Source of the DNA: a virus
Taxonomy: Duplodnaviria; Heunggongvirae; Uroviricota; Caudoviricetes
Virus record (IMG/VR): IMGVR_UViG_3300038409_000042
DNA length: 64,000 nucleotides
Direction: 5' to 3' (one strand)
Below are positions 27,898 through 35,452 of this stretch, piece after piece; position 1 is the stretch's first letter, and each line of letters begins with the position of its first letter. Below the pieces are notes generated by a model that saw nothing but the letters and a program-made list of their open reading frames with translations, did no database searches and was not told the DNA's origin. A program made the translations under genes and the position numbers.

Positions 27898-28320
27898 ATG
27901 CGTAGCATTTCTTATCACAGCCTTGGAAGTGTTATGAAGCATATCGCGTCCAAAGAAGAAGCTCCATCATTTCGCAAGGTCCTGGGGTTCGTGATTGCTC
28001 ACTACCAGGACGAAAACAATTGGCTTCAGGGTGCGCCGTCAAATGACAACGGTTCCCGGCGTTGCTTGGGATTCAATATTCTTTGCGGCATCACCGGCAG
28101 CGGCCCTGAAGCGGGAGATCAAGTCTCGGTCGACAGAGAAGTCACGAATGCATTCCTTTCTCAACTCCAGCCGTTCTACCCGGAGAAATACCGGACAGGC
28201 GACGCCAGGGAGATGACGGCGGCATTCAACGACGATCCCGAAACGACCATTGATACTGTCCGGGGCGTTCTTGCGGCGGCCCTGAACAGCCTTCCACCGG
28301 AAGACGAAGCGGTCAATTGA
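27898..28320 (+). CDS. small Cys-motif protein family member (RRCLGFNILCGITG)
   Basis: RBS GGGAG. 140 aa. Shares the C-x-L-G...L motif with six downstream paralogs. Confidence 0.55.
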   Translation: MRSISYHSLGSVMKHIASKEEAPSFRKVLGFVIAHYQDENNWLQGAPSNDNGSRRCLGFNILCGITGSGPEAGDQVSVDREVTNAFLSQLQPFYPEKYRTGDAREMTAAFNDDPETTIDTVRGVLAAALNSLPPEDEAVN

Positions 28321-28350
28321 CCATGGGGGCTTTGCCCCCAGCCCTGCAAT

Positions 28351-28404
28351 TAGTCGGCCTCCACGTGGCGCAGGGCGGAAACTAGCGATGCTAGGCTAAC
28401 GACT
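28351..28404 (+). promoter_or_regulatory. conserved 5'-leader motif, copy 4
   Basis: TAGTCGGCCTCCACGTGGCGCAGGGCGGAAAC, then hairpin CTAGC-GAT-GCTAG, then GCTAACGACTG. Compensatory change AGTCG/CGACT versus AGTCA/TGACT in other copies. Confidence 0.6.
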
Positions 28405-28416
28405 GGAGCAACGATC

Positions 28417-28920
28417 ATGCAACCCACAAAAGAGCAACTTGAAGCCCGTGAACGCTTCCTCAACGCTCTTGTTCAGCACGATCTCACCCTCTTGATTGGA
28501 GACGTTCCGATCAAGATCAAACAAGGGCAAGGGCTCTTGGCGACCGAGCTTCCCCCAGAGGGAAGCCCGCACGAAGAAAAGACGCTTTACTGTTGTTGTT
28601 TGGGCGTCTCCTGTTTGGTCGAGAAGAATGAATTTTCTCCAAGATCGGACGGAGCTTACGCGTTCTCTCAAACGATTCACAACAAACGCTACAACAACAT
28701 CTCAGCCTATCCACAGACTGATTGGTTTTCGGACAAGTACGGCGTGAACGTCGACTATGCTGAGCCGATCATCTTCGGAGCGGCAGCGGCCAATGATGAG
28801 TTGAAGCTATCATTTAGCCAAATTGCAGCATGGCTGAAGCTTCAATTCGAGAATGCTGACAAGGGCGAACAAGTCCTTAATCCTCAGAGTTGGTGGGCCA
28901 ACAGAGGCAAAATCACCTGA
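28417..28920 (+). CDS. small Cys-motif protein family member (YCCCLGVSCLV); paralog of 29469-29915
   Basis: MQPTKEQLEARERF, CCCLGV, AAAANDELK and KLQFENADKG all align with 29469-29915. Confidence 0.6.
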   Translation: MQPTKEQLEARERFLNALVQHDLTLLIGDVPIKIKQGQGLLATELPPEGSPHEEKTLYCCCLGVSCLVEKNEFSPRSDGAYAFSQTIHNKRYNNISAYPQTDWFSDKYGVNVDYAEPIIFGAAAANDELKLSFSQIAAWLKLQFENADKGEQVLNPQSWWANRGKIT

Positions 28921-28950
28921 ACTTGGGGGCTCTGCCCCCAGCCCCGCATC

Positions 28951-29007
28951 TAGTCAGGCTCCACGCGCCGCGGGGTGGGCAACCTTTACAGGTTGGCGAA
29001 TGACTAA
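28951..29007 (+). promoter_or_regulatory. conserved 5'-leader motif, copy 5
   Basis: TAGTCAGGCTCCACGCGCCGCGGGGTGGGCAAC, then hairpin CTTTACAGG-like AACCT-TTAC-AGGTT, then GGCGAATGACTA. Confidence 0.6.
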
Positions 29008-29024
29008 ATCAAAGGAGCGAAACA

Positions 29025-29363
29025 ATGCAACCGAAAGATTATCTCACAACTGAGAGAGTTCGGAACACGCATCCTGAGAACGCAGCGCTTTATACCAAAT
29101 TGATCAAGCGGGCGTTCGGCGACAATATCGACGTGATCGTGGGTCATCATATCGGTTTCCAGGTGCATGAGCACATTGAGACCGAAAATGAAATCCCCAG
29201 CGCCGACACTTTGTTATTTGACCACGATATCATGTTCGCGGCATTTGGCGTGGATCGAGCATTGCGCCTCATGTCGGCAATGATTCGGGTTCCCTGCGAT
29301 CAGCGGGAAGTCATGGTGGCGAATGCCCTGGACGGCCTGGAGATCGATATTCAAGCAGCGTAA
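29025..29363 (+). CDS. hypothetical protein
   Basis: 112 aa with N-terminus MQPKDY. Same ATGCAACC start context as 28417 and 30049. Confidence 0.55.
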   Translation: MQPKDYLTTERVRNTHPENAALYTKLIKRAFGDNIDVIVGHHIGFQVHEHIETENEIPSADTLLFDHDIMFAAFGVDRALRLMSAMIRVPCDQREVMVANALDGLEIDIQAA

Positions 29364-29396
29364 GCTGCGGGGGCTTTATGCCCCTTGCTACCAAAA

Positions 29397-33143: not shown

Positions 33144-33171
33144 TGGACCCTTAAAAGAAAGGCCACATTAA

Positions 33172-34176
33172 ATGTCTCATGAATTAGACATGACAACGGG
33201 AAAGGCTGCTATGGCTTATACAGGGGAAACCCCCTGGCATAAGCTCGGCGAACGTCTGGAACGTGGCGCATCGATCGAACAGTGGGCCAAAGCCGCTGGT
33301 ATCGAATGGGAGGCCATCAAGATTCCTGGCTACATGAAGCTTGATGATCAGTTCGTGGAGGTTCCTAATCACTTCCACCTCATTCGCAATGATACTGCGG
33401 CTATCCTCGGTCACTTCACTGACAGCTATAAGCCAGTTCAGCCTAGTGAAATTCTAGGCTTCTTTAGAGACCACGTCCTATCGGACCCAAGGTTCTCTAT
33501 TGAAACGGCTGGAGCCCTTCGTGAAGGGCGCTTGATCTTCGCTCTAGCTCGGTTCGAAGAGGACCTAGAAGTAGCTGGAGACAAGCATGGCGTCTACATA
33601 GGACTGGCGACATCGTATGATGGAACCCTGTCCACGACGGCGCAAGGCACCTGCATACGTTGGGTCTGCAACAATACAGTTACAGCTGGCATGCTTGACA
33701 AATCAGCTGTAATCAAAATCAGACACAACCAATTGTTCACGACACCTCGTCAAGAACAGGCTGTAGCCGAGCTTACGGAAGCCCTGCAAGCCACCCAAAT
33801 CTATAAAAAGGTTGGCGATACGTTGGCCCTGAGAAAGCTCAACAACGACCAGATCGGAGACTTCTTCAAGTACTGTCTTGATATTCCTCTTGATATGCCA
33901 AGAGAGGAAATTTCAACAAGGAAGTACAATCAATTTGAAGCTCTACTCTTGTCGCTTCAGAAAGAATATGACGCAGGAGCCGACAAGAATACTGCTTGGG
34001 CCGCTTTGAATGCGGTCACGCGGTACATTGATCATGAGCGGACAGCTCGGGTCACTGGAACGGACAGCGCAATGCGTAATCGTGTGTACTCCGCGAACTT
34101 CGGTAGCGGAGCCACGATTAAGACCAAGGCGATTGCAGCGTTGGTCGACGGAACTTCGACGTTGCCAAGAGGCTAA
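33172..34176 (+). CDS. DUF932 (phage/plasmid-related protein, TIGR03299-like)
   Basis: N-terminus MSHELDMTTGKAAMAYTGETPWHKLG and 334-aa length match the DUF932 family signature (aamaY.GevPWHgLG). Confidence 0.65.
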   Translation: MSHELDMTTGKAAMAYTGETPWHKLGERLERGASIEQWAKAAGIEWEAIKIPGYMKLDDQFVEVPNHFHLIRNDTAAILGHFTDSYKPVQPSEILGFFRDHVLSDPRFSIETAGALREGRLIFALARFEEDLEVAGDKHGVYIGLATSYDGTLSTTAQGTCIRWVCNNTVTAGMLDKSAVIKIRHNQLFTTPRQEQAVAELTEALQATQIYKKVGDTLALRKLNNDQIGDFFKYCLDIPLDMPREEISTRKYNQFEALLLSLQKEYDAGADKNTAWAALNAVTRYIDHERTARVTGTDSAMRNRVYSANFGSGATIKTKAIAALVDGTSTLPRG

Positions 34177-34190
34177 ATCTGACCTTAATA

Positions 34191-34222
34191 GGCGTGTGGC
34201 GCAAGCTGCACGCCTATTTTTA
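34191..34222 (+). terminator. rho-independent terminator
   Basis: GGCGTGTGGC-GCAA-GCTGCACGCC followed by TATTTTTAT. Near-duplicate of the terminator at 34863. Confidence 0.7.
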
Positions 34223-34247
34223 TGGGGGACTACTAGGAGCATTACAT

Positions 34248-34856
34248 ATGCACAAGGAACGTATCCTAAGGCTAGCGGATCGGCTCGATAAAGTCTTGCC
34301 GGAACACTATGATCCTTCAAGTTGGTTCTCTACTCCCGTTCGCCTCTATGAACTTATTGAGAAGAGAGTTGTTAAAGAAGAGTTTGGAAGGACCATTCTT
34401 CTTAAGGAAGGGTTCTGCGGTAGTGTTGCATGCACCCTCGGTCATGCTGCACTTATCCCTGAGTTCATCAAGGATGGTCTCCATATCAGCTTTGGTTCTG
34501 ATCAAACCTTCGGCACTGTCTACTATAAGAACCAACATGGTAATTTTGCAGGAGGGGCCGCTGGCGGCGCTCTCTTCTTTGATATTCCAGAGAATCATGC
34601 TGAAATCATGTTCTTCACTCACGGAAATGAGAACATTACCGAAAGCTTCTATGGTGTGGATAGCGCATCACTAGTCACTCCTAAAATCGCTGCTGCTGCT
34701 CTTCGTAAGTACGTTGAGACCGATGGCGAGAATATGGAAGAGGCTATCATCCGATTTAATTCTGATGAAGACACCGACGAAGATGATGAGGACGATAGCG
34801 AAAGCTATGACTCAGATTGGGATGAAGACGAGTACGAAACTGAAACTGAGGAATGA
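34248..34856 (+). CDS. small Cys-motif protein family member (FCGSVACTLGHAALI) with poly-acidic C-terminus; paralog of 34934-35452
   Basis: Start corrected to ATG 34248 (RBS AGGAG). MHKERILRLADRLDKV aligns with MNKERLLRLADRLDKV of the next gene. The C-terminal ~45 aa are very rich in D/E. Confidence 0.6.
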   Translation: MHKERILRLADRLDKVLPEHYDPSSWFSTPVRLYELIEKRVVKEEFGRTILLKEGFCGSVACTLGHAALIPEFIKDGLHISFGSDQTFGTVYYKNQHGNFAGGAAGGALFFDIPENHAEIMFFTHGNENITESFYGVDSASLVTPKIAAAALRKYVETDGENMEEAIIRFNSDEDTDEDDEDDSESYDSDWDEDEYETETEE

Positions 34857-34862
34857 TCCTAA

Positions 34863-34895
34863 GGGGCGTGGCGCAAGCTGCGCCCCTTAATTTAT
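34863..34895 (+). terminator. rho-independent terminator
   Basis: GGGGCGTGGC-GCAA-GCTGCGCCCC followed by TTAATTTAT. Confidence 0.65.
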
Positions 34896-34933
34896 GGGGG
34901 CTCGAAAGGAACGCATAATAAGGAGAAATGAGT

Positions 34934-35452
34934 ATGAACAAAGAACGGCTTCTAAGGCTTGCTGATCGTCTTGACAAGGTTAAGACTAAGCATTTCTATT
35001 TCGGCCAATGGTTCGAAACTCCAGACAAGTACGAAAGGAAGATTGAGAGGAGGACTCTGGCCAGGATCAAGAATGGCTTCAAACTTATGGATGAAGGCTT
35101 TTGTGGCTCAATCGCCTGTGTATTGGGCCATGCTGCTCTCATAAATGAGTTTCGTGACAAAGGGTTGAACATTTTCTTCCCGACAACGGACGCCACGGTT
35201 GGGAGCGTGCGCTATAAAGGACATTCAAATGATGCAGCCGGAGCTGAGTTCTTCGATATTCCAAGGAAACATGCGGCATCTATGTTCCTTCCCACAGATG
35301 CAACTCTTATCTTCTATGAAGCTAAGGACACCAACAATATTACTCCTAAGAAGGCAGCTAAGGCTATCAGAAAGTACGTCGAAACAGACGGCAAGTTCTT
35401 GGAAGAGTGCATAGATATAGCTTCTAGAGAGGTTATCATAGAAGAAGATTAA
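34934..35452 (+). CDS. small Cys-motif protein family member (FCGSIACVLGHAALI)
   Basis: Start at the second ATG (34934) by paralog alignment and RBS spacing. 172 aa. Confidence 0.6.
   Translation: MNKERLLRLADRLDKVKTKHFYFGQWFETPDKYERKIERRTLARIKNGFKLMDEGFCGSIACVLGHAALINEFRDKGLNIFFPTTDATVGSVRYKGHSNDAAGAEFFDIPRKHAASMFLPTDATLIFYEAKDTNNITPKKAAKAIRKYVETDGKFLEECIDIASREVIIEED

What the first reader, a model, noticed from the sequence alone, without database searches (positions are those of the whole stretch)
27898..35452. Diversified family of at least seven small paralogous proteins sharing a Cys motif, each with its own terminator
Proteins at 27898 (RRCLGFNILCG), 28417 (YCCCLGVSCLV), 29469 (SCCCLGVALLV), 30049 (SCKFCLAGAFRV), 32084 (HCCCLMGGALLMG), 34248 (FCGSVACTLGHAALI) and 34934 (FCGSIACVLGHAALI) share a core C-x0-4-C-x-[LT]-[GAM]-x2-3-[LA]-[LV]. 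Clear pairwise relationships are 28417/29469 (N-terminus E-x-LEARER, C-terminus FxxxDKG), 30049/32084 (ALDCA(I/V)E) and 34248/34934 (N-terminus KER(I/L)LRLADRLDKV; the terminators 34191 and 34863 are also near-identical, indicating duplication of the gene plus terminator unit). Three of the genes start with the same ATGCAACC context (MQP...). This looks like a lineage-specific expansion of a metal- or thiol-containing small protein, candidates for anti-defence or host-takeover functions. I cannot assign the family to a known named domain from sequence alone.
Basis: seen in the sequence. Interest (0 to 1): 0.7.

Follow-up and report, generated by a model that had tools for sequence, protein, structure and literature searches.

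The report
Cys-motif phage proteins plus ribozyme array
Seven small phage genes of unknown function fall into three little-known families (DUF6197 and two look-alikes) that share a cysteine-leucine-glycine helix, and several of the supposed terminators between them are in fact self-cleaving HDV-like ribozymes, each sitting just ahead of a gene.

Summary
They are not one demonstrable family.

- **Family A:** p1, p4 and p5 match Pfam DUF6197.
- **Family B:** p2 and p3 belong to a rare CCLGV family (phrog_18067-like, probably DUF8296).
- **Family C:** p6 and p7 belong to an EGFCGSxACxLGHAAL family (phrog_889-like).

Profile-profile links between the families are weak and unstable. A common origin is nevertheless suggested by three things. 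The AlphaFold models of p2 and p7 have the same order of secondary-structure elements. The motifs are co-linear. The families also cluster together, often as tandem paralogues, in unrelated phages. No function is known and no solved structure matches. Metal binding is not supported, because only one Cys per family is invariant.

"Each with its own terminator" is half wrong. Six consecutive spacers (26.8-29.5 kb), including those before p1, p2 and p3, hold a GC hairpin without a U-tract followed by an HDV-like ribozyme, 10-18 nt upstream of the next start codon. A covariance model built only from other phages finds exactly these six sites. From 29.9 kb onward the spacers carry ordinary terminators.

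The window is a roughly 77.6-kb environmental phage.

The parts
27898..28320 (+). p1, 140 aa, family A (DUF6197, marginal)
   Evidence: Pfam PF19698 at 25.1 bits (cut-off 24.6), E 2.3e-5. RBS AAGGA lies 5 nt before the ATG.
28417..28920 (+). p2, 167 aa, family B (CCLGV; phrog_18067/DUF8296-like)
   Evidence: 41.9% identical to p3. An exhaustive HMM search found only 8 distant relatives. AF2 model pLDDT 88.2.
29469..29915 (+). p3, 148 aa, family B, paralogue of p2
30049..30624 (+). p4, 191 aa, family A (DUF6197, clear member) with a C-terminal extension
   Evidence: Pfam PF19698 at 53.4 bits, E 3.7e-14. phrog_762 E 2.8e-12.
32084..32572 (+). p5, 162 aa, family A (DUF6197-like, 0.1 bit under the cut-off)
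   Evidence: Pfam 24.5 bits against a cut-off of 24.6. Shares FND..T..V..ALDCA(I/V)E with p4.
34248..34856 (+). p6, 202 aa, family C (EGFCGSxACxLGHAAL; phrog_889-like) with a very acidic tail
   Evidence: 50% identical to p7. 21 of the last 30 residues are D or E.
34934..35452 (+). p7, 172 aa, family C
   Evidence: 22 relatives found. AF2 model pLDDT 90.1. phrog_889 E 0.0056 for p7, and 12 of 22 relatives match it.
26775..26867 (+). GC hairpin (26775-26799) plus HDV-like ribozyme 1 (26803-26867), ahead of gene 26885-27247
   Evidence: Rfam RF02682 at 35.7 bits. Independent model R1 at 46.1 bits. All helices pair.
27254..27356 (+). GC hairpin (27254-27273) plus HDV-like ribozyme 2 (27278-27356; first pair A-U, P3 GCG/CGC), ahead of gene 27371-27796
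   Evidence: Found by the descriptor scan. R1 28.6 bits, E 4e-5. Not seen by Rfam.
27800..27884 (+). GC hairpin (27800-27817) plus HDV-like ribozyme 3 (27818-27884), ahead of p1
   Evidence: Rfam 32.9 bits. R1 32.9 bits. P1.1 covaries, CC/GG to CU/AG.
28324..28406 (+). GC hairpin (28324-28340) plus HDV-like ribozyme 4 (28341-28406), ahead of p2
   Evidence: Rfam 35.4 bits. R1 47.1 bits.
28924..29006 (+). GC hairpin (28924-28940) plus HDV-like ribozyme 5 (28941-29006), ahead of gene 29025-29363
   Evidence: Rfam 30.4 bits. R1 40.5 bits. P3 covaries, GCC/GGC to GGC/GCC.
29370..29453 (+). GC hairpin (29370-29384) plus HDV-like ribozyme 6 (29387-29453), ahead of p3
   Evidence: Rfam 35.1 bits. R1 32.8 bits. 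P2 covaries.
29921..29954 (+). 15-bp terminator-like hairpin after p3 (poor T-tract)
30625..30708 (+). tentative type II hammerhead ribozyme in the p4-HTH spacer, with predicted cleavage after 30679
   Evidence: All core nucleotides and three stems are present. The descriptor gives 1 hit in the window against 1 in 100 shuffles (post hoc). Rfam gives no hit.
30738..31067 (+). HTH_3 regulator gene directly downstream of p4
   Evidence: Pfam HTH_3 E 1.1e-10
32027..32065 (+). intrinsic-terminator-like hairpin plus T-tract upstream of p5
   Evidence: repeat family D2
32584..32618 (+). hairpin plus T-tract after p5
   Evidence: repeat family D19
34190..34228 (+). terminator upstream of p6
   Evidence: 82% identical to 34862-34900.
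34862..34900 (+). terminator after p6 and upstream of p7 (duplicated unit)
35497..35532 (+). terminator after p7

Best explanation
The region is part of a + strand block of accessory genes (about 25-40 kb of the window) in an uncultured phage of roughly 77.6 kb.

**The seven proteins.** They are small, single-domain alpha/beta proteins of three separately recognisable families.
- Family A is DUF6197: p1, p4, p5.
- Family B is a CCLGV family that is probably Pfam DUF8296: p2, p3.
- Family C has the motif EGFCGSxACxLGHAAL: p6, p7.

The models of p2 and p7 share one predicted architecture, and family A, which was not modelled, shows the same two sequence motifs. It runs N-terminal helix, beta-hairpin, a strand leading into a helix that starts with Cys-x-Leu-Gly, a second small sheet, then a C-terminal helical bundle. 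The last long helix of that bundle follows an (F)ND..(T/S)..(V/I)(A)..L motif. I consider them most likely (about 0.6) distant relatives of one DUF6197-like superfamily, expanded here by at least two recent tandem duplications.

**Function (inferred, about 0.3-0.35).** I think they are non-catalytic binding modules. The invariant Cys-Leu-Gly would be a packing element of the central helix. The variable loops and tails, such as the poly-acidic tail of p6, would engage different host targets, whether for anti-defence or host takeover. Several diverged copies would then be kept side by side.

**Expression (fold shown computationally, cleavage inferred).** The first six genes of the array (26885-29915, including p1, p2 and p3) are each preceded by a module of a stable GC hairpin followed by an HDV-like self-cleaving ribozyme.
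- Cleavage at the ribozyme 5' end would leave the upstream mRNA ending in the hairpin with a 2',3'-cyclic phosphate.
- The downstream mRNA would begin with a 5'-OH buried in helix P1, 10-18 nt ahead of its start codon.
- A polycistronic transcript would thus be cut into single-gene mRNAs with protected ends.

From 29.9 kb on, genes are separated by ordinary hairpin-plus-U-tract terminators.
For: **Family assignment**
- Pfam, PHROGs and exhaustive HMM searches give the three assignments.
- Precomputed Pfam labels relative P0033 as DUF8296.

**Duplications**
- BLASTP and DNA alignments show them.

**Common architecture**
- The AF2 models of p7 (pLDDT 90.1) and p2 (pLDDT 88.2) show the same order of secondary-structure elements. 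In both, the motif Cys lies at the strand-to-helix junction.
- Extended hhalign alignments put the Cys-LG motif and the C-terminal ND/T-helix in register in all three family pairs.
- Observed scores exceed all 120 column shuffles.
- Among 151 window ORFs, profile A ranks p3 as the first non-member, and profile B ranks p4 and p5 first.

**Co-occurrence in independent phages**
- L013 carries B plus three C genes within 3.5 kb.
- L017 carries two B-like genes plus C.
- L001 and L002 carry DUF6197 plus C.
- Phage Motura carries four tandem DUF6197 genes.
- Multi-copy and tandem-fused DUF6197 genes are reported in Gordonia phages (PMC10586128).
- P0032 is a triple B domain.

**Context**
- The neighbours are DUF932, DUF7168 and an HTH_3 gene directly after p4.

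**Ribozymes**
- Rfam RF02682 gives five sub-threshold hits of 30-36 bits, all in spacers on the coding strand.
- A full double-pseudoknot parse succeeds for every copy, with compensatory changes in P1, P1.1, P2, P3 and P4.
- The descriptor finds 6 hits in the window and 0 in 50 shuffled windows.
- A covariance model built only from 10 IMG/VR sequences finds exactly these six sites at 28.6-47.1 bits. The next best hit scores 9.9 bits.
- In the wider family, 97.2% of cells are paired against 70.6% in shuffles, and all 14 pairs show double changes.
- The hairpin ends 0-4 nt before the cleavage site, and an RBS plus start codon follows 10-18 nt after P2.
Against: **Superfamily unity is not proven**
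- Cross-family hhalign probabilities are 0.3-40%.
- They fell when more sequences were added: A-B dropped to score 17.0 (P 0.056).
- A-C at 17.6 is no better than a reversed-alignment control at 16.6.
- Family C members never hit DUF6197 in Pfam.
- The BFVD fold hits of the p7 and p2 models do not overlap.
- I could not superpose the two models.

**The binding-protein and anti-defence function has no direct evidence**
- There is no characterised homologue.
- No paper deals with the function.

**Ribozymes**
- All Rfam scores are below the gathering threshold of 44 bits.
- Two copies lack the canonical G1.U first pair: 28341 has G-C and 27278 has A-U.
- Self-cleavage is untested.
Confidence: 0.5

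Rival explanations
1. The three families are unrelated. The short Cys-x-Leu-Gly similarity would then be convergent or a chance resemblance between small alpha/beta proteins that merely share an accessory-gene neighbourhood.
For: - All cross-family BLASTP E-values are above 0.3.
- hhalign probabilities are at most 40% and unstable.
- A-C equals the reversed control.
- Pfam DUF6197 does not detect families B or C.
- The fold-search hit lists do not overlap.
Against: - The B and C models show the same order of secondary-structure elements, with the Cys at the same strand-to-helix junction.
- Two separate motifs are co-linear in all three pairs.
- Profiles A and B rank each other's members first among 151 ORFs.
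- All three families are rare, with 4, 7 and 1 phage records by tblastn. Even so, they cluster together in at least four independent phage lineages.
Confidence: 0.35
2. They are small thiol-dependent enzymes. The invariant Cys, placed at the N-terminus of a helix right after a strand, would be a nucleophile. It would be assisted by the conserved Asn-Asp of families A and B and would act on a host or phage substrate.
For: - The Cys sits at a helix N-terminus, a classic low-pKa position.
- C plus ND are among the very few invariant polar residues.
- The EGFCGS loop of family C is strongly conserved.
Against: - No His is conserved. H66 of family C is Gln in three members.
- The ND motif is not conserved in family C.
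- Surface loops and tails are highly divergent, which is more typical of binders.
Confidence: 0.2
3. This is the first reader's idea: the proteins bind a metal (a Zn or Fe-S site) or are redox-active CxxC-type proteins.
For: - Several members have two or three neighbouring Cys. Examples are CCC in p2, p3 and p5, CxxC in p4, and Cx4C plus His in p6 and p7.
Against: - The number and spacing of the Cys are not conserved: single C, CC, CxC, CxxC and Cx4C all occur.
- Some clear DUF6197 members have a single Cys, for example L001 and L002.
- A mononuclear site needs 3-4 conserved ligands, and no family has them.
- No zinc-finger or thioredoxin-like hit appears in Pfam, NCBIfam or PDB.
Confidence: 0.07
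4. The six hairpin-plus-HDV-like elements are inactive repeats or merely terminators or attenuators. The mRNAs would then not be cut.
For: - Rfam scores of 30-36 bits lie under the 44-bit gathering threshold.
- Two copies lack the G1.U pair.
- The copies share sequence, so they may be duplicated spacers (repeat families D1 and D3).
Against: - Every helix, including the two pseudoknot helices P1.1 and P2, is kept by compensatory changes between copies.
- The candidate catalytic C in GCNAA is present in all six.
- An independent model separates them from background by about 19 bits.
- G-C and A-U first pairs also occur among IMG/VR members.
- The hairpins have no U-tract, so they cannot act as intrinsic terminators.
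Confidence: 0.15

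Closest known systems
Pfam DUF6197 (PF19698) / phrog_762
   Same: p4 is a clear member, p1 is marginal and p5 is 0.1 bit short. All three show the N-terminal helix, W-x-(K/Q)-G, C-x-L-x-G-A, and FND..TT..V..A(I)E. Multi-copy occurrence is already noted in Gordonia phages (PMC10586128).
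   Different: p4 carries a roughly 55-aa C-terminal extension. Three diverged copies lie in one cluster next to two other look-alike families. The function of the family is unknown.
Pfam DUF8296 (PF26948) / phrog_18067
   Same: Relatives of p2 and p3 share ALxSGxYxQG...(Y)CCLGV...WF..YG...ND..SF..IA. One of them (P0033, which is L013:6627-7061) is labelled DUF8296 in the precomputed Pfam hits. Seven of nine aligned members hit phrog_18067.
   Different: p2 and p3 themselves hit neither model directly. They have lost the SGxYxQG consensus and carry insertions. The family is extremely rare, with 10 representatives among 1.84 billion.
phrog_889 (unknown function)
   Same: 12 of 22 relatives of p6 and p7 match it, with a best E of 2e-6.
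   Different: p7 matches only at E 0.0056 and p6 not at all. There is no Pfam family and no PDB fold match.
HDV-like ribozymes (Rfam RF02682 drz-Fpra type; theta ribozymes of gut phages, PMC10879173)
   Same: They share the nested double pseudoknot P1/P1.1/P2/P3/P4, the L3 sequence UCCACGN, and J4/2 GCNAA with the candidate catalytic C. The same core is found in 114 IMG/VR loci.
   Different: Theta and IMG/VR copies mostly flank tRNAs: 19 of 36 unique copies have a tRNA within 40 nt downstream. Here all six sit 10-18 nt upstream of protein start codons, each directly behind a GC hairpin, in six consecutive spacers. All score below Rfam's gathering threshold.
Synthetic ribozyme insulators (RiboJ-type) and proposed ribozyme processing of polycistronic mRNAs (review PMC6765202)
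   Same: A self-cleaving ribozyme in the 5'UTR would give each cistron a defined 5' end independent of upstream context.
   Different: This one is natural, uses an HDV-like rather than a hammerhead ribozyme, and is paired with a 3'-end hairpin for the upstream fragment. It is unverified experimentally. The RiboJ comparison is from my own knowledge.
acr-aca type anti-defence operons
   Same: Small diverged accessory genes are followed by an HTH regulator (p4 then HTH_3). The neighbours DUF932 and DUF7168 are, to my recollection, typical of mobile-element accessory regions.
   Different: There is no homology to any known anti-defence protein and no functional test. The resemblance is contextual only.

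Membership tests
Pfam DUF6197 (PF19698) | Whole-protein score at or above the gathering cut-off of 24.6 bits | tested here: met
   This row applies to p4 (53.4 bits) and p1 (25.1 bits). p5 scores 24.5 bits, just below the cut-off. It is nevertheless related to p4 through the FND..T..ALDCA block.
Pfam DUF6197 (PF19698) | The same cut-off applied to p2, p3, p6, p7 and their relatives | tested here: not met
   There is no hit for p2, p3, p6 or p7, none for P0027-P0034, and none for the 22 family C members even at E up to 10.
   hhalign gives A-B 32-40% (P 5e-4 to 5e-5), falling to 1% with larger alignments. B-C gives 6-9% (P 0.004-0.007). A-C gives 1-3% and equals the reversed control. The motifs are co-linear.
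One superfamily of all seven | Common fold | tested here: inconclusive
   The p2 and p7 AF2 models show the same order of secondary-structure elements. No superposition was possible, there is no family A model, and the BFVD hit lists do not overlap.
DUF8296 (PF26948) / phrog_18067 | Direct HMM match of p2 or p3 | tested here: inconclusive
   The local Pfam copy gave no PF26948 hit even for the protein that is labelled so in the precomputed data. p2 has no PHROG hit, while 7 of 9 aligned relatives hit phrog_18067. The p2+p3 HMM reaches the DUF8296-labelled P0033 at E 7.6e-4.
phrog_889 | HMM match | tested here: inconclusive
   p7 matches at E 0.0056. 12 of 22 relatives match, with a best E of 2e-6.
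Zinc-finger / Fe-S / CxxC redox proteins | Three or four conserved metal ligands, or a conserved CxxC spacing | tested here: not met
   The invariant Cys count is one in A, two adjacent in B, and one in C (C62; C57 nearly invariant), with variable spacing.
Papain-like / NlpC-P60 Cys hydrolases | Cys at a helix N-terminus plus a conserved His on a following strand, and the corresponding fold | tested here: not met
HDV-like ribozymes | Nested double pseudoknot (P1, P1.1, P2, P3, P4) with a C in J4/2 | tested here: met
   All six copies parse fully and show compensatory changes. The independent covariance model gives 28.6-47.1 bits. The family shows covariation.
HDV-like ribozymes | Rfam RF02682 gathering score of 44 bits | tested here: not met
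   Five copies score 30.4-35.7 bits. The sixth is not detected.
HDV-like ribozymes | Site-specific self-cleavage 5' of position 1 | not testable with these tools
   This needs in-vitro transcription or RNA-end mapping.
Theta ribozymes (tRNA-associated HDV-like ribozymes of gut phages) | Direct adjacency to a phage tRNA | tested here: not met
   No tRNA lies near any of the six copies. By contrast, 19 of 36 unique IMG/VR copies have a tRNA within 40 nt downstream.
Type II hammerhead ribozyme (candidate 30625-30708) | Core CUGANGA, GAAA and UH, with three stems and stem II open | tested here: inconclusive
   The descriptor is satisfied, with 1 hit in the window against 1 in 100 shuffles (post hoc). 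No Rfam hammerhead model matches even at E up to 10.
Intrinsic terminators | GC-rich hairpin immediately followed by a U-tract | tested here: met
   Met at 32027, 32584, 34190, 34862 and 35497, and marginally at 29921. Not met for the hairpins after p1, p2 and p4, which have no U-tract.

The most novel reading that the evidence does not exclude
The six hairpin-plus-HDV-like-ribozyme modules are active. They would convert a phage polycistronic transcript into individually end-protected monocistronic mRNAs, a natural ribozyme 'punctuation' or insulator system for protein-coding genes. The cargo they punctuate would be a DUF6197-like superfamily of diversified anti-defence or host-targeting binders, uniting Pfam DUF6197, DUF8296 and phrog_889.
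Probability: 0.4. Interest if true: 0.7.

Novelty: new variant of a known kind. Interest (0 to 1): 0.5.

Why it matters
**Proteins.** Three uncharacterised phage families would gain a common framework. DUF6197 is already known to be multi-copy in actinophages. The framework consists of shared architecture, repeated co-clustering and tandem expansion, a pattern also seen in families under diversifying pressure such as anti-defence genes. This gives a rational set of candidates for functional screens.

**RNA.** The biological role of most bacterial and phage self-cleaving ribozymes is still open. Processing of polycistronic mRNAs has been proposed but not demonstrated (PMC6765202). Theta-type HDV-like ribozymes that are not next to a tRNA have no assigned function (PMC10879173).

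An array of six such ribozymes would make that hypothesis directly testable in a single locus. Each is placed between a 3' hairpin and the next gene's ribosome-binding site.

Tried and rejected
- **Megablast of the 10-kb region** against plasmids and phages gave no match.
- **Word-indexed homologue searches** with p2 and p4 found only the proteins themselves.
- **The search for related loci in IMG/VR** with the family A and C alignments confirmed no relatives, and the B alignment had no usable conserved stretch.
- **The variability test across related phages was impossible.** Every contig carrying p6 or p7 is the same phage at 99.9% identity or more.
- **Possible extra family members.** Genes 27371-27796 (RLCILDALAVV), 29025-29363 and 26885-27247 were tested. 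hhalign scores of 9.6-16.3 are at background, so they were rejected.
- **Enlarging the alignments** did not strengthen the cross-family signal.
- **A strict 20-nt ribozyme pattern in IMG/VR** hit only two chance sites, one of them inside a terminase gene.
- **Related phages carrying family C genes** have no HDV-like hits.
- **MAFFT alignments of the six window ribozymes** were not structure-consistent. I therefore parsed the copies by hand and built the covariance model from other phages instead.

Full report
**Context.** The window is a tailed phage. It carries the following genes.
- Large terminase (12259-13809, - strand).
- Portal (9325-12258, - strand).
- Major head protein (5726-6628, - strand).
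- Primase/helicase (40998-42686, - strand).
- Ribonucleotide reductase.
- Nine tRNA genes.
- A Ro60/TROVE-vWA gene.

Contigs that carry identical copies of the genes are 77.5-77.6 kb long and at least 99.9% identical to the window. The closest terminases in isolated phages are only about 38-44% identical; they come from an aquatic gammaproteobacterial phage, Pelagibacter phages and cyanophages. The finding lies in a block of + strand accessory genes. That block also holds DUF932 (33172-34176), DUF7168 (36166-36984) and an HTH_3 regulator (30738-31067).

**The observation.**
- All seven ORFs exist with the quoted peptides.
- BLASTP confirms p2/p3 (41.9% identity, E 3e-32) and p6/p7 (50%, E 2.7e-47). 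p4/p5 share only a short C-terminal block (E 5e-4). Every other pair has E above 0.3.
Shuffled proteins give 0.15 matches. The motif is therefore enriched, but these are only three independent occurrences.
- ATGCAACC occurs three times in the window, each time as a start codon. One of them (29025) starts a gene that is not a family member.
- The p6 and p7 units were duplicated together with their upstream terminator. 34190-34228 and 34862-34900 are 82% identical, which is more than the coding DNA.

**What the proteins are.**
- *Family A.* Pfam assigns p4 (53.4 bits), p1 (25.1 bits) and, 0.1 bit under the cut-off, p5 (24.5 bits) to DUF6197. p4 also matches phrog_762.
- *Family B.* p2 and p3 have no direct family hit. 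An exhaustive HMM search of 1.84 billion representatives found eight distant relatives (E 1e-9 to 9e-4). These share ALxSGxYxQG..(Y)CCLGV..WF..YG..ND..SF..IA. Seven of the nine aligned members hit phrog_18067. One of the relatives is labelled DUF8296 in the precomputed Pfam data.
- *Family C.* p6 and p7 have 22 relatives with a strongly conserved EGFCGSxACVLGHAALI. There is no Pfam family, and the match to phrog_889 is weak.
- *Prior knowledge.* No solved structure is related by sequence. The only paper mentioning DUF6197 notes two copies and tandem fusions in Gordonia phages, with no function given. Nothing exists on DUF8296 or the PHROG families.

**Are the three families one? Sequence evidence is equivocal.**
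- With the first alignments, hhalign gave 0.3-6% probability.
- With a seven-member family A alignment, A-B rose to 32-40% (P 5e-4 to 5e-5), B-C gave P 0.007 and A-C gave P 0.015.
- All three scores exceeded every one of 120 column shuffles.
- The extended alignments put both the Cys-LG helix and the C-terminal ND..(T/S)..(V/I)A..L helix in register.
- Against all 151 window ORFs of at least 100 aa, profile A ranks p3 as its first non-member, and profile B ranks p4 and p5 first. Profile C ranks no A or B member near the top.
- When I enlarged the alignments, A-B fell to score 17.0 (P 0.056). A-C (17.6) was then no better than a reversed-alignment control (16.6). Only B-C (24.7 against 17.3) stayed above its control.

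**Independent support for a common origin.**
- The AlphaFold2 models of p7 (pLDDT 90.1) and p2 (pLDDT 88.2) have the same order of elements. This is N-helix, beta-hairpin, strand, Cys-initiated helix, small sheet, then several C-terminal helices (four in the p2 model, five in p7).
- The families repeatedly sit together in unrelated phages.
  - L013 has a B gene, a 123-aa CAIGV protein and three C genes within 3.5 kb.
  - L017 has two B-like genes and a C gene.
  - L001 and L002 have DUF6197 and C within 6 kb.
  - Achromobacter phage Motura has four tandem DUF6197 genes, and Pseudomonas phage Milchi has two.
- Each family is rare among isolated phages, with 4, 7 and 1 records by tblastn.

I put common ancestry at about 0.6.

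**Function.**
- Only one Cys is invariant in families A and C (C57 of C is nearly invariant) and two adjacent Cys in family B, and the second Cys is variably spaced or absent. This argues against a metal or CxxC centre.
- No His is conserved; H66 of family C is Gln in three members. This argues against a Cys-His hydrolase.
- The invariant Cys-x-Leu-Gly starts the central helix and is followed by small residues, which fits a packing role.
- Divergence is concentrated in loops and tails. p6 ends with 21 acidic residues among its last 30.
- Taken with the tandem diversification and the neighbouring HTH, DUF932 and DUF7168 genes, my preferred but unproven reading is a set of non-catalytic binding modules aimed at host targets (about 0.3-0.35). 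A thiol enzyme comes next (about 0.2).

**The 'terminators'.** Folding the spacers showed that those before 26885, 27898 (p1), 28417 (p2), 29025 and 29469 (p3) share a GC hairpin without a U-tract, followed by a conserved structured element.
- Rfam scores these five as HDV-like ribozymes (RF02682, 30.4-35.7 bits, below the 44-bit threshold). There are no other such hits in the window.
- A hand parse shows that every copy forms P1, P1.1, P2, P3 and P4 without a single mismatch. Compensatory changes occur in each helix, for example P1.1 CC/GG to CU/AG and P3 GCC/GGC to GGC/GCC. All five have GCNAA in J4/2, and four of the five have a G1.U first pair.
- A descriptor scan found a sixth copy at 27278-27356. 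It found none elsewhere on either strand and none in 50 shuffled windows.
- The same core occurs at 114 IMG/VR loci.
- A covariance model built only from ten of those sequences, run without filters, finds exactly the six window sites at 47.1, 46.1, 40.5, 32.9, 32.8 and 28.6 bits. The next best hit scores 9.9 bits.
- On 52 distinct family members, 97.2% of cells pair against 70.6% in shuffles and 32-56% when partners are slid. All 14 pairs show double changes.

**Geometry and context of the ribozymes.**
- In the window the hairpin ends 0-4 nt before the predicted cleavage site. An RBS and start codon follow 10-18 nt after P2.
- In IMG/VR, arrays of five to seven copies also exist, but inside tRNA clusters. 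19 of 36 unique copies have a tRNA within 40 nt downstream, and only 3 have an RBS plus ORF.
- The published theta ribozymes are tRNA-linked. Those away from tRNAs have no assigned function (PMC10879173).
- Ribozyme processing of polycistronic bacterial mRNAs has been proposed but not established (PMC6765202).
- The inference here is that cleavage yields an upstream fragment ending in a hairpin with a cyclic phosphate, and a downstream fragment starting with a structured 5'-OH leader.

**Downstream of 29.9 kb.** The spacers carry ordinary hairpin-plus-T-tract terminators at 29921, 31119, 31662, 32027, 32584, 33117, 34190, 34862, 35497 and 37311. The spacer between p4 and the HTH gene satisfies a type II hammerhead descriptor. 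No Rfam model supports this, so I keep it as tentative.

**Verdict.**
- The protein observation is real but over-unified. It comprises three known-but-uncharacterised families, two recent duplications, a plausible but unproven superfamily link, and no support for a metal centre.
- The statement about terminators is wrong for the first part of the cluster. The more unusual feature of the locus is there: six HDV-like ribozymes punctuating protein-coding genes.

Noticed in passing
window 26775-29453 (+): Six consecutive intergenic modules, each a GC hairpin followed by an HDV-like self-cleaving ribozyme and lying 10-18 nt upstream of a protein start codon. A covariance model built from other phages finds exactly these six sites.
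   Followed up: yes
window 30625-30708 (+): The spacer between p4 and the HTH gene fits a type II hammerhead: GGAC-GAAA, a long stem III, GUC with the cut after it, a stem I hairpin, then CUGAUGA-GUCC. The descriptor hits once in the window against once in 100 shuffles, but no Rfam hammerhead model matches.
   Followed up: partly
window 38162-38498 and 38700-40049 (+): A Ro60/TROVE-vWA gene is preceded by two tRNA-like elements (38162-38225, 38430-38498) and a weak YrlA (Y RNA-like) hit at 38315-38381. This looks like a phage Ro60 plus Y-RNA module. Related phages carry DUF2828/DUF7788 genes, which may be Ro60-like, in the same kind of block.
   Followed up: no
window 29957, 31151, 32052, 32614, 33138, 34216, 34890, 35527 (+): Immediately after the terminator hairpins a short motif recurs, T-tract then (A/G)TGG(G/A), for example TTTTTATGGGGGACT. 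It may be more than the U-tract, perhaps a promoter or processing signal.
   Followed up: no
IMG/VR loci L025, L072, L065, L040, L128: The same HDV-like ribozyme occurs in arrays of five to seven copies inside phage tRNA clusters. The ribozyme 3' end lies about 7 nt upstream of a tRNA. 24 of 36 unique copies have a GC hairpin ending 0-4 nt before the cleavage site.
   Followed up: partly
L005 3333-5123 (Achromobacter phage Motura) and L004 4043-4886 (Pseudomonas phage Milchi): Four consecutive DUF6197-like genes in Motura and two in Milchi, all annotated as hypothetical. Tandem expansion of this family is recurrent in phages with large genomes (221 kb and 175 kb).
   Followed up: partly
L013 6627-10102: An unrelated phage contig carries a DUF8296 (family B) gene, a 123-aa protein with a GPCAIGVII motif, and three family C genes in a row. 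It mirrors the mixed cluster of the window.
   Followed up: partly
window 27371-27796 (+): By eye this protein resembles DUF6197 (LTPENFAEGG...RLCILDALAVV...YSDGGVPVEDVHRLI), and it sits inside the ribozyme-punctuated array. Its hhalign scores are at background (9.7), so it is not counted as a member.
   Followed up: partly
window 34767-34856 (C-terminus of p6): p6 ends in a poly-acidic tail, with 21 D or E among the last 30 residues. Some family C relatives also end in acidic runs, for example P0004. This could be a DNA-mimic-like or partner-binding tail.
   Followed up: no
L001 9907-9977, L002 9905-9975, L015 8954-9024: In three related large phages a tRNA gene lies directly upstream, within about 30 nt, of the family C gene. 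The block there also holds an RNA ligase, NUDIX, HAD and DUF6915 genes.
   Followed up: no
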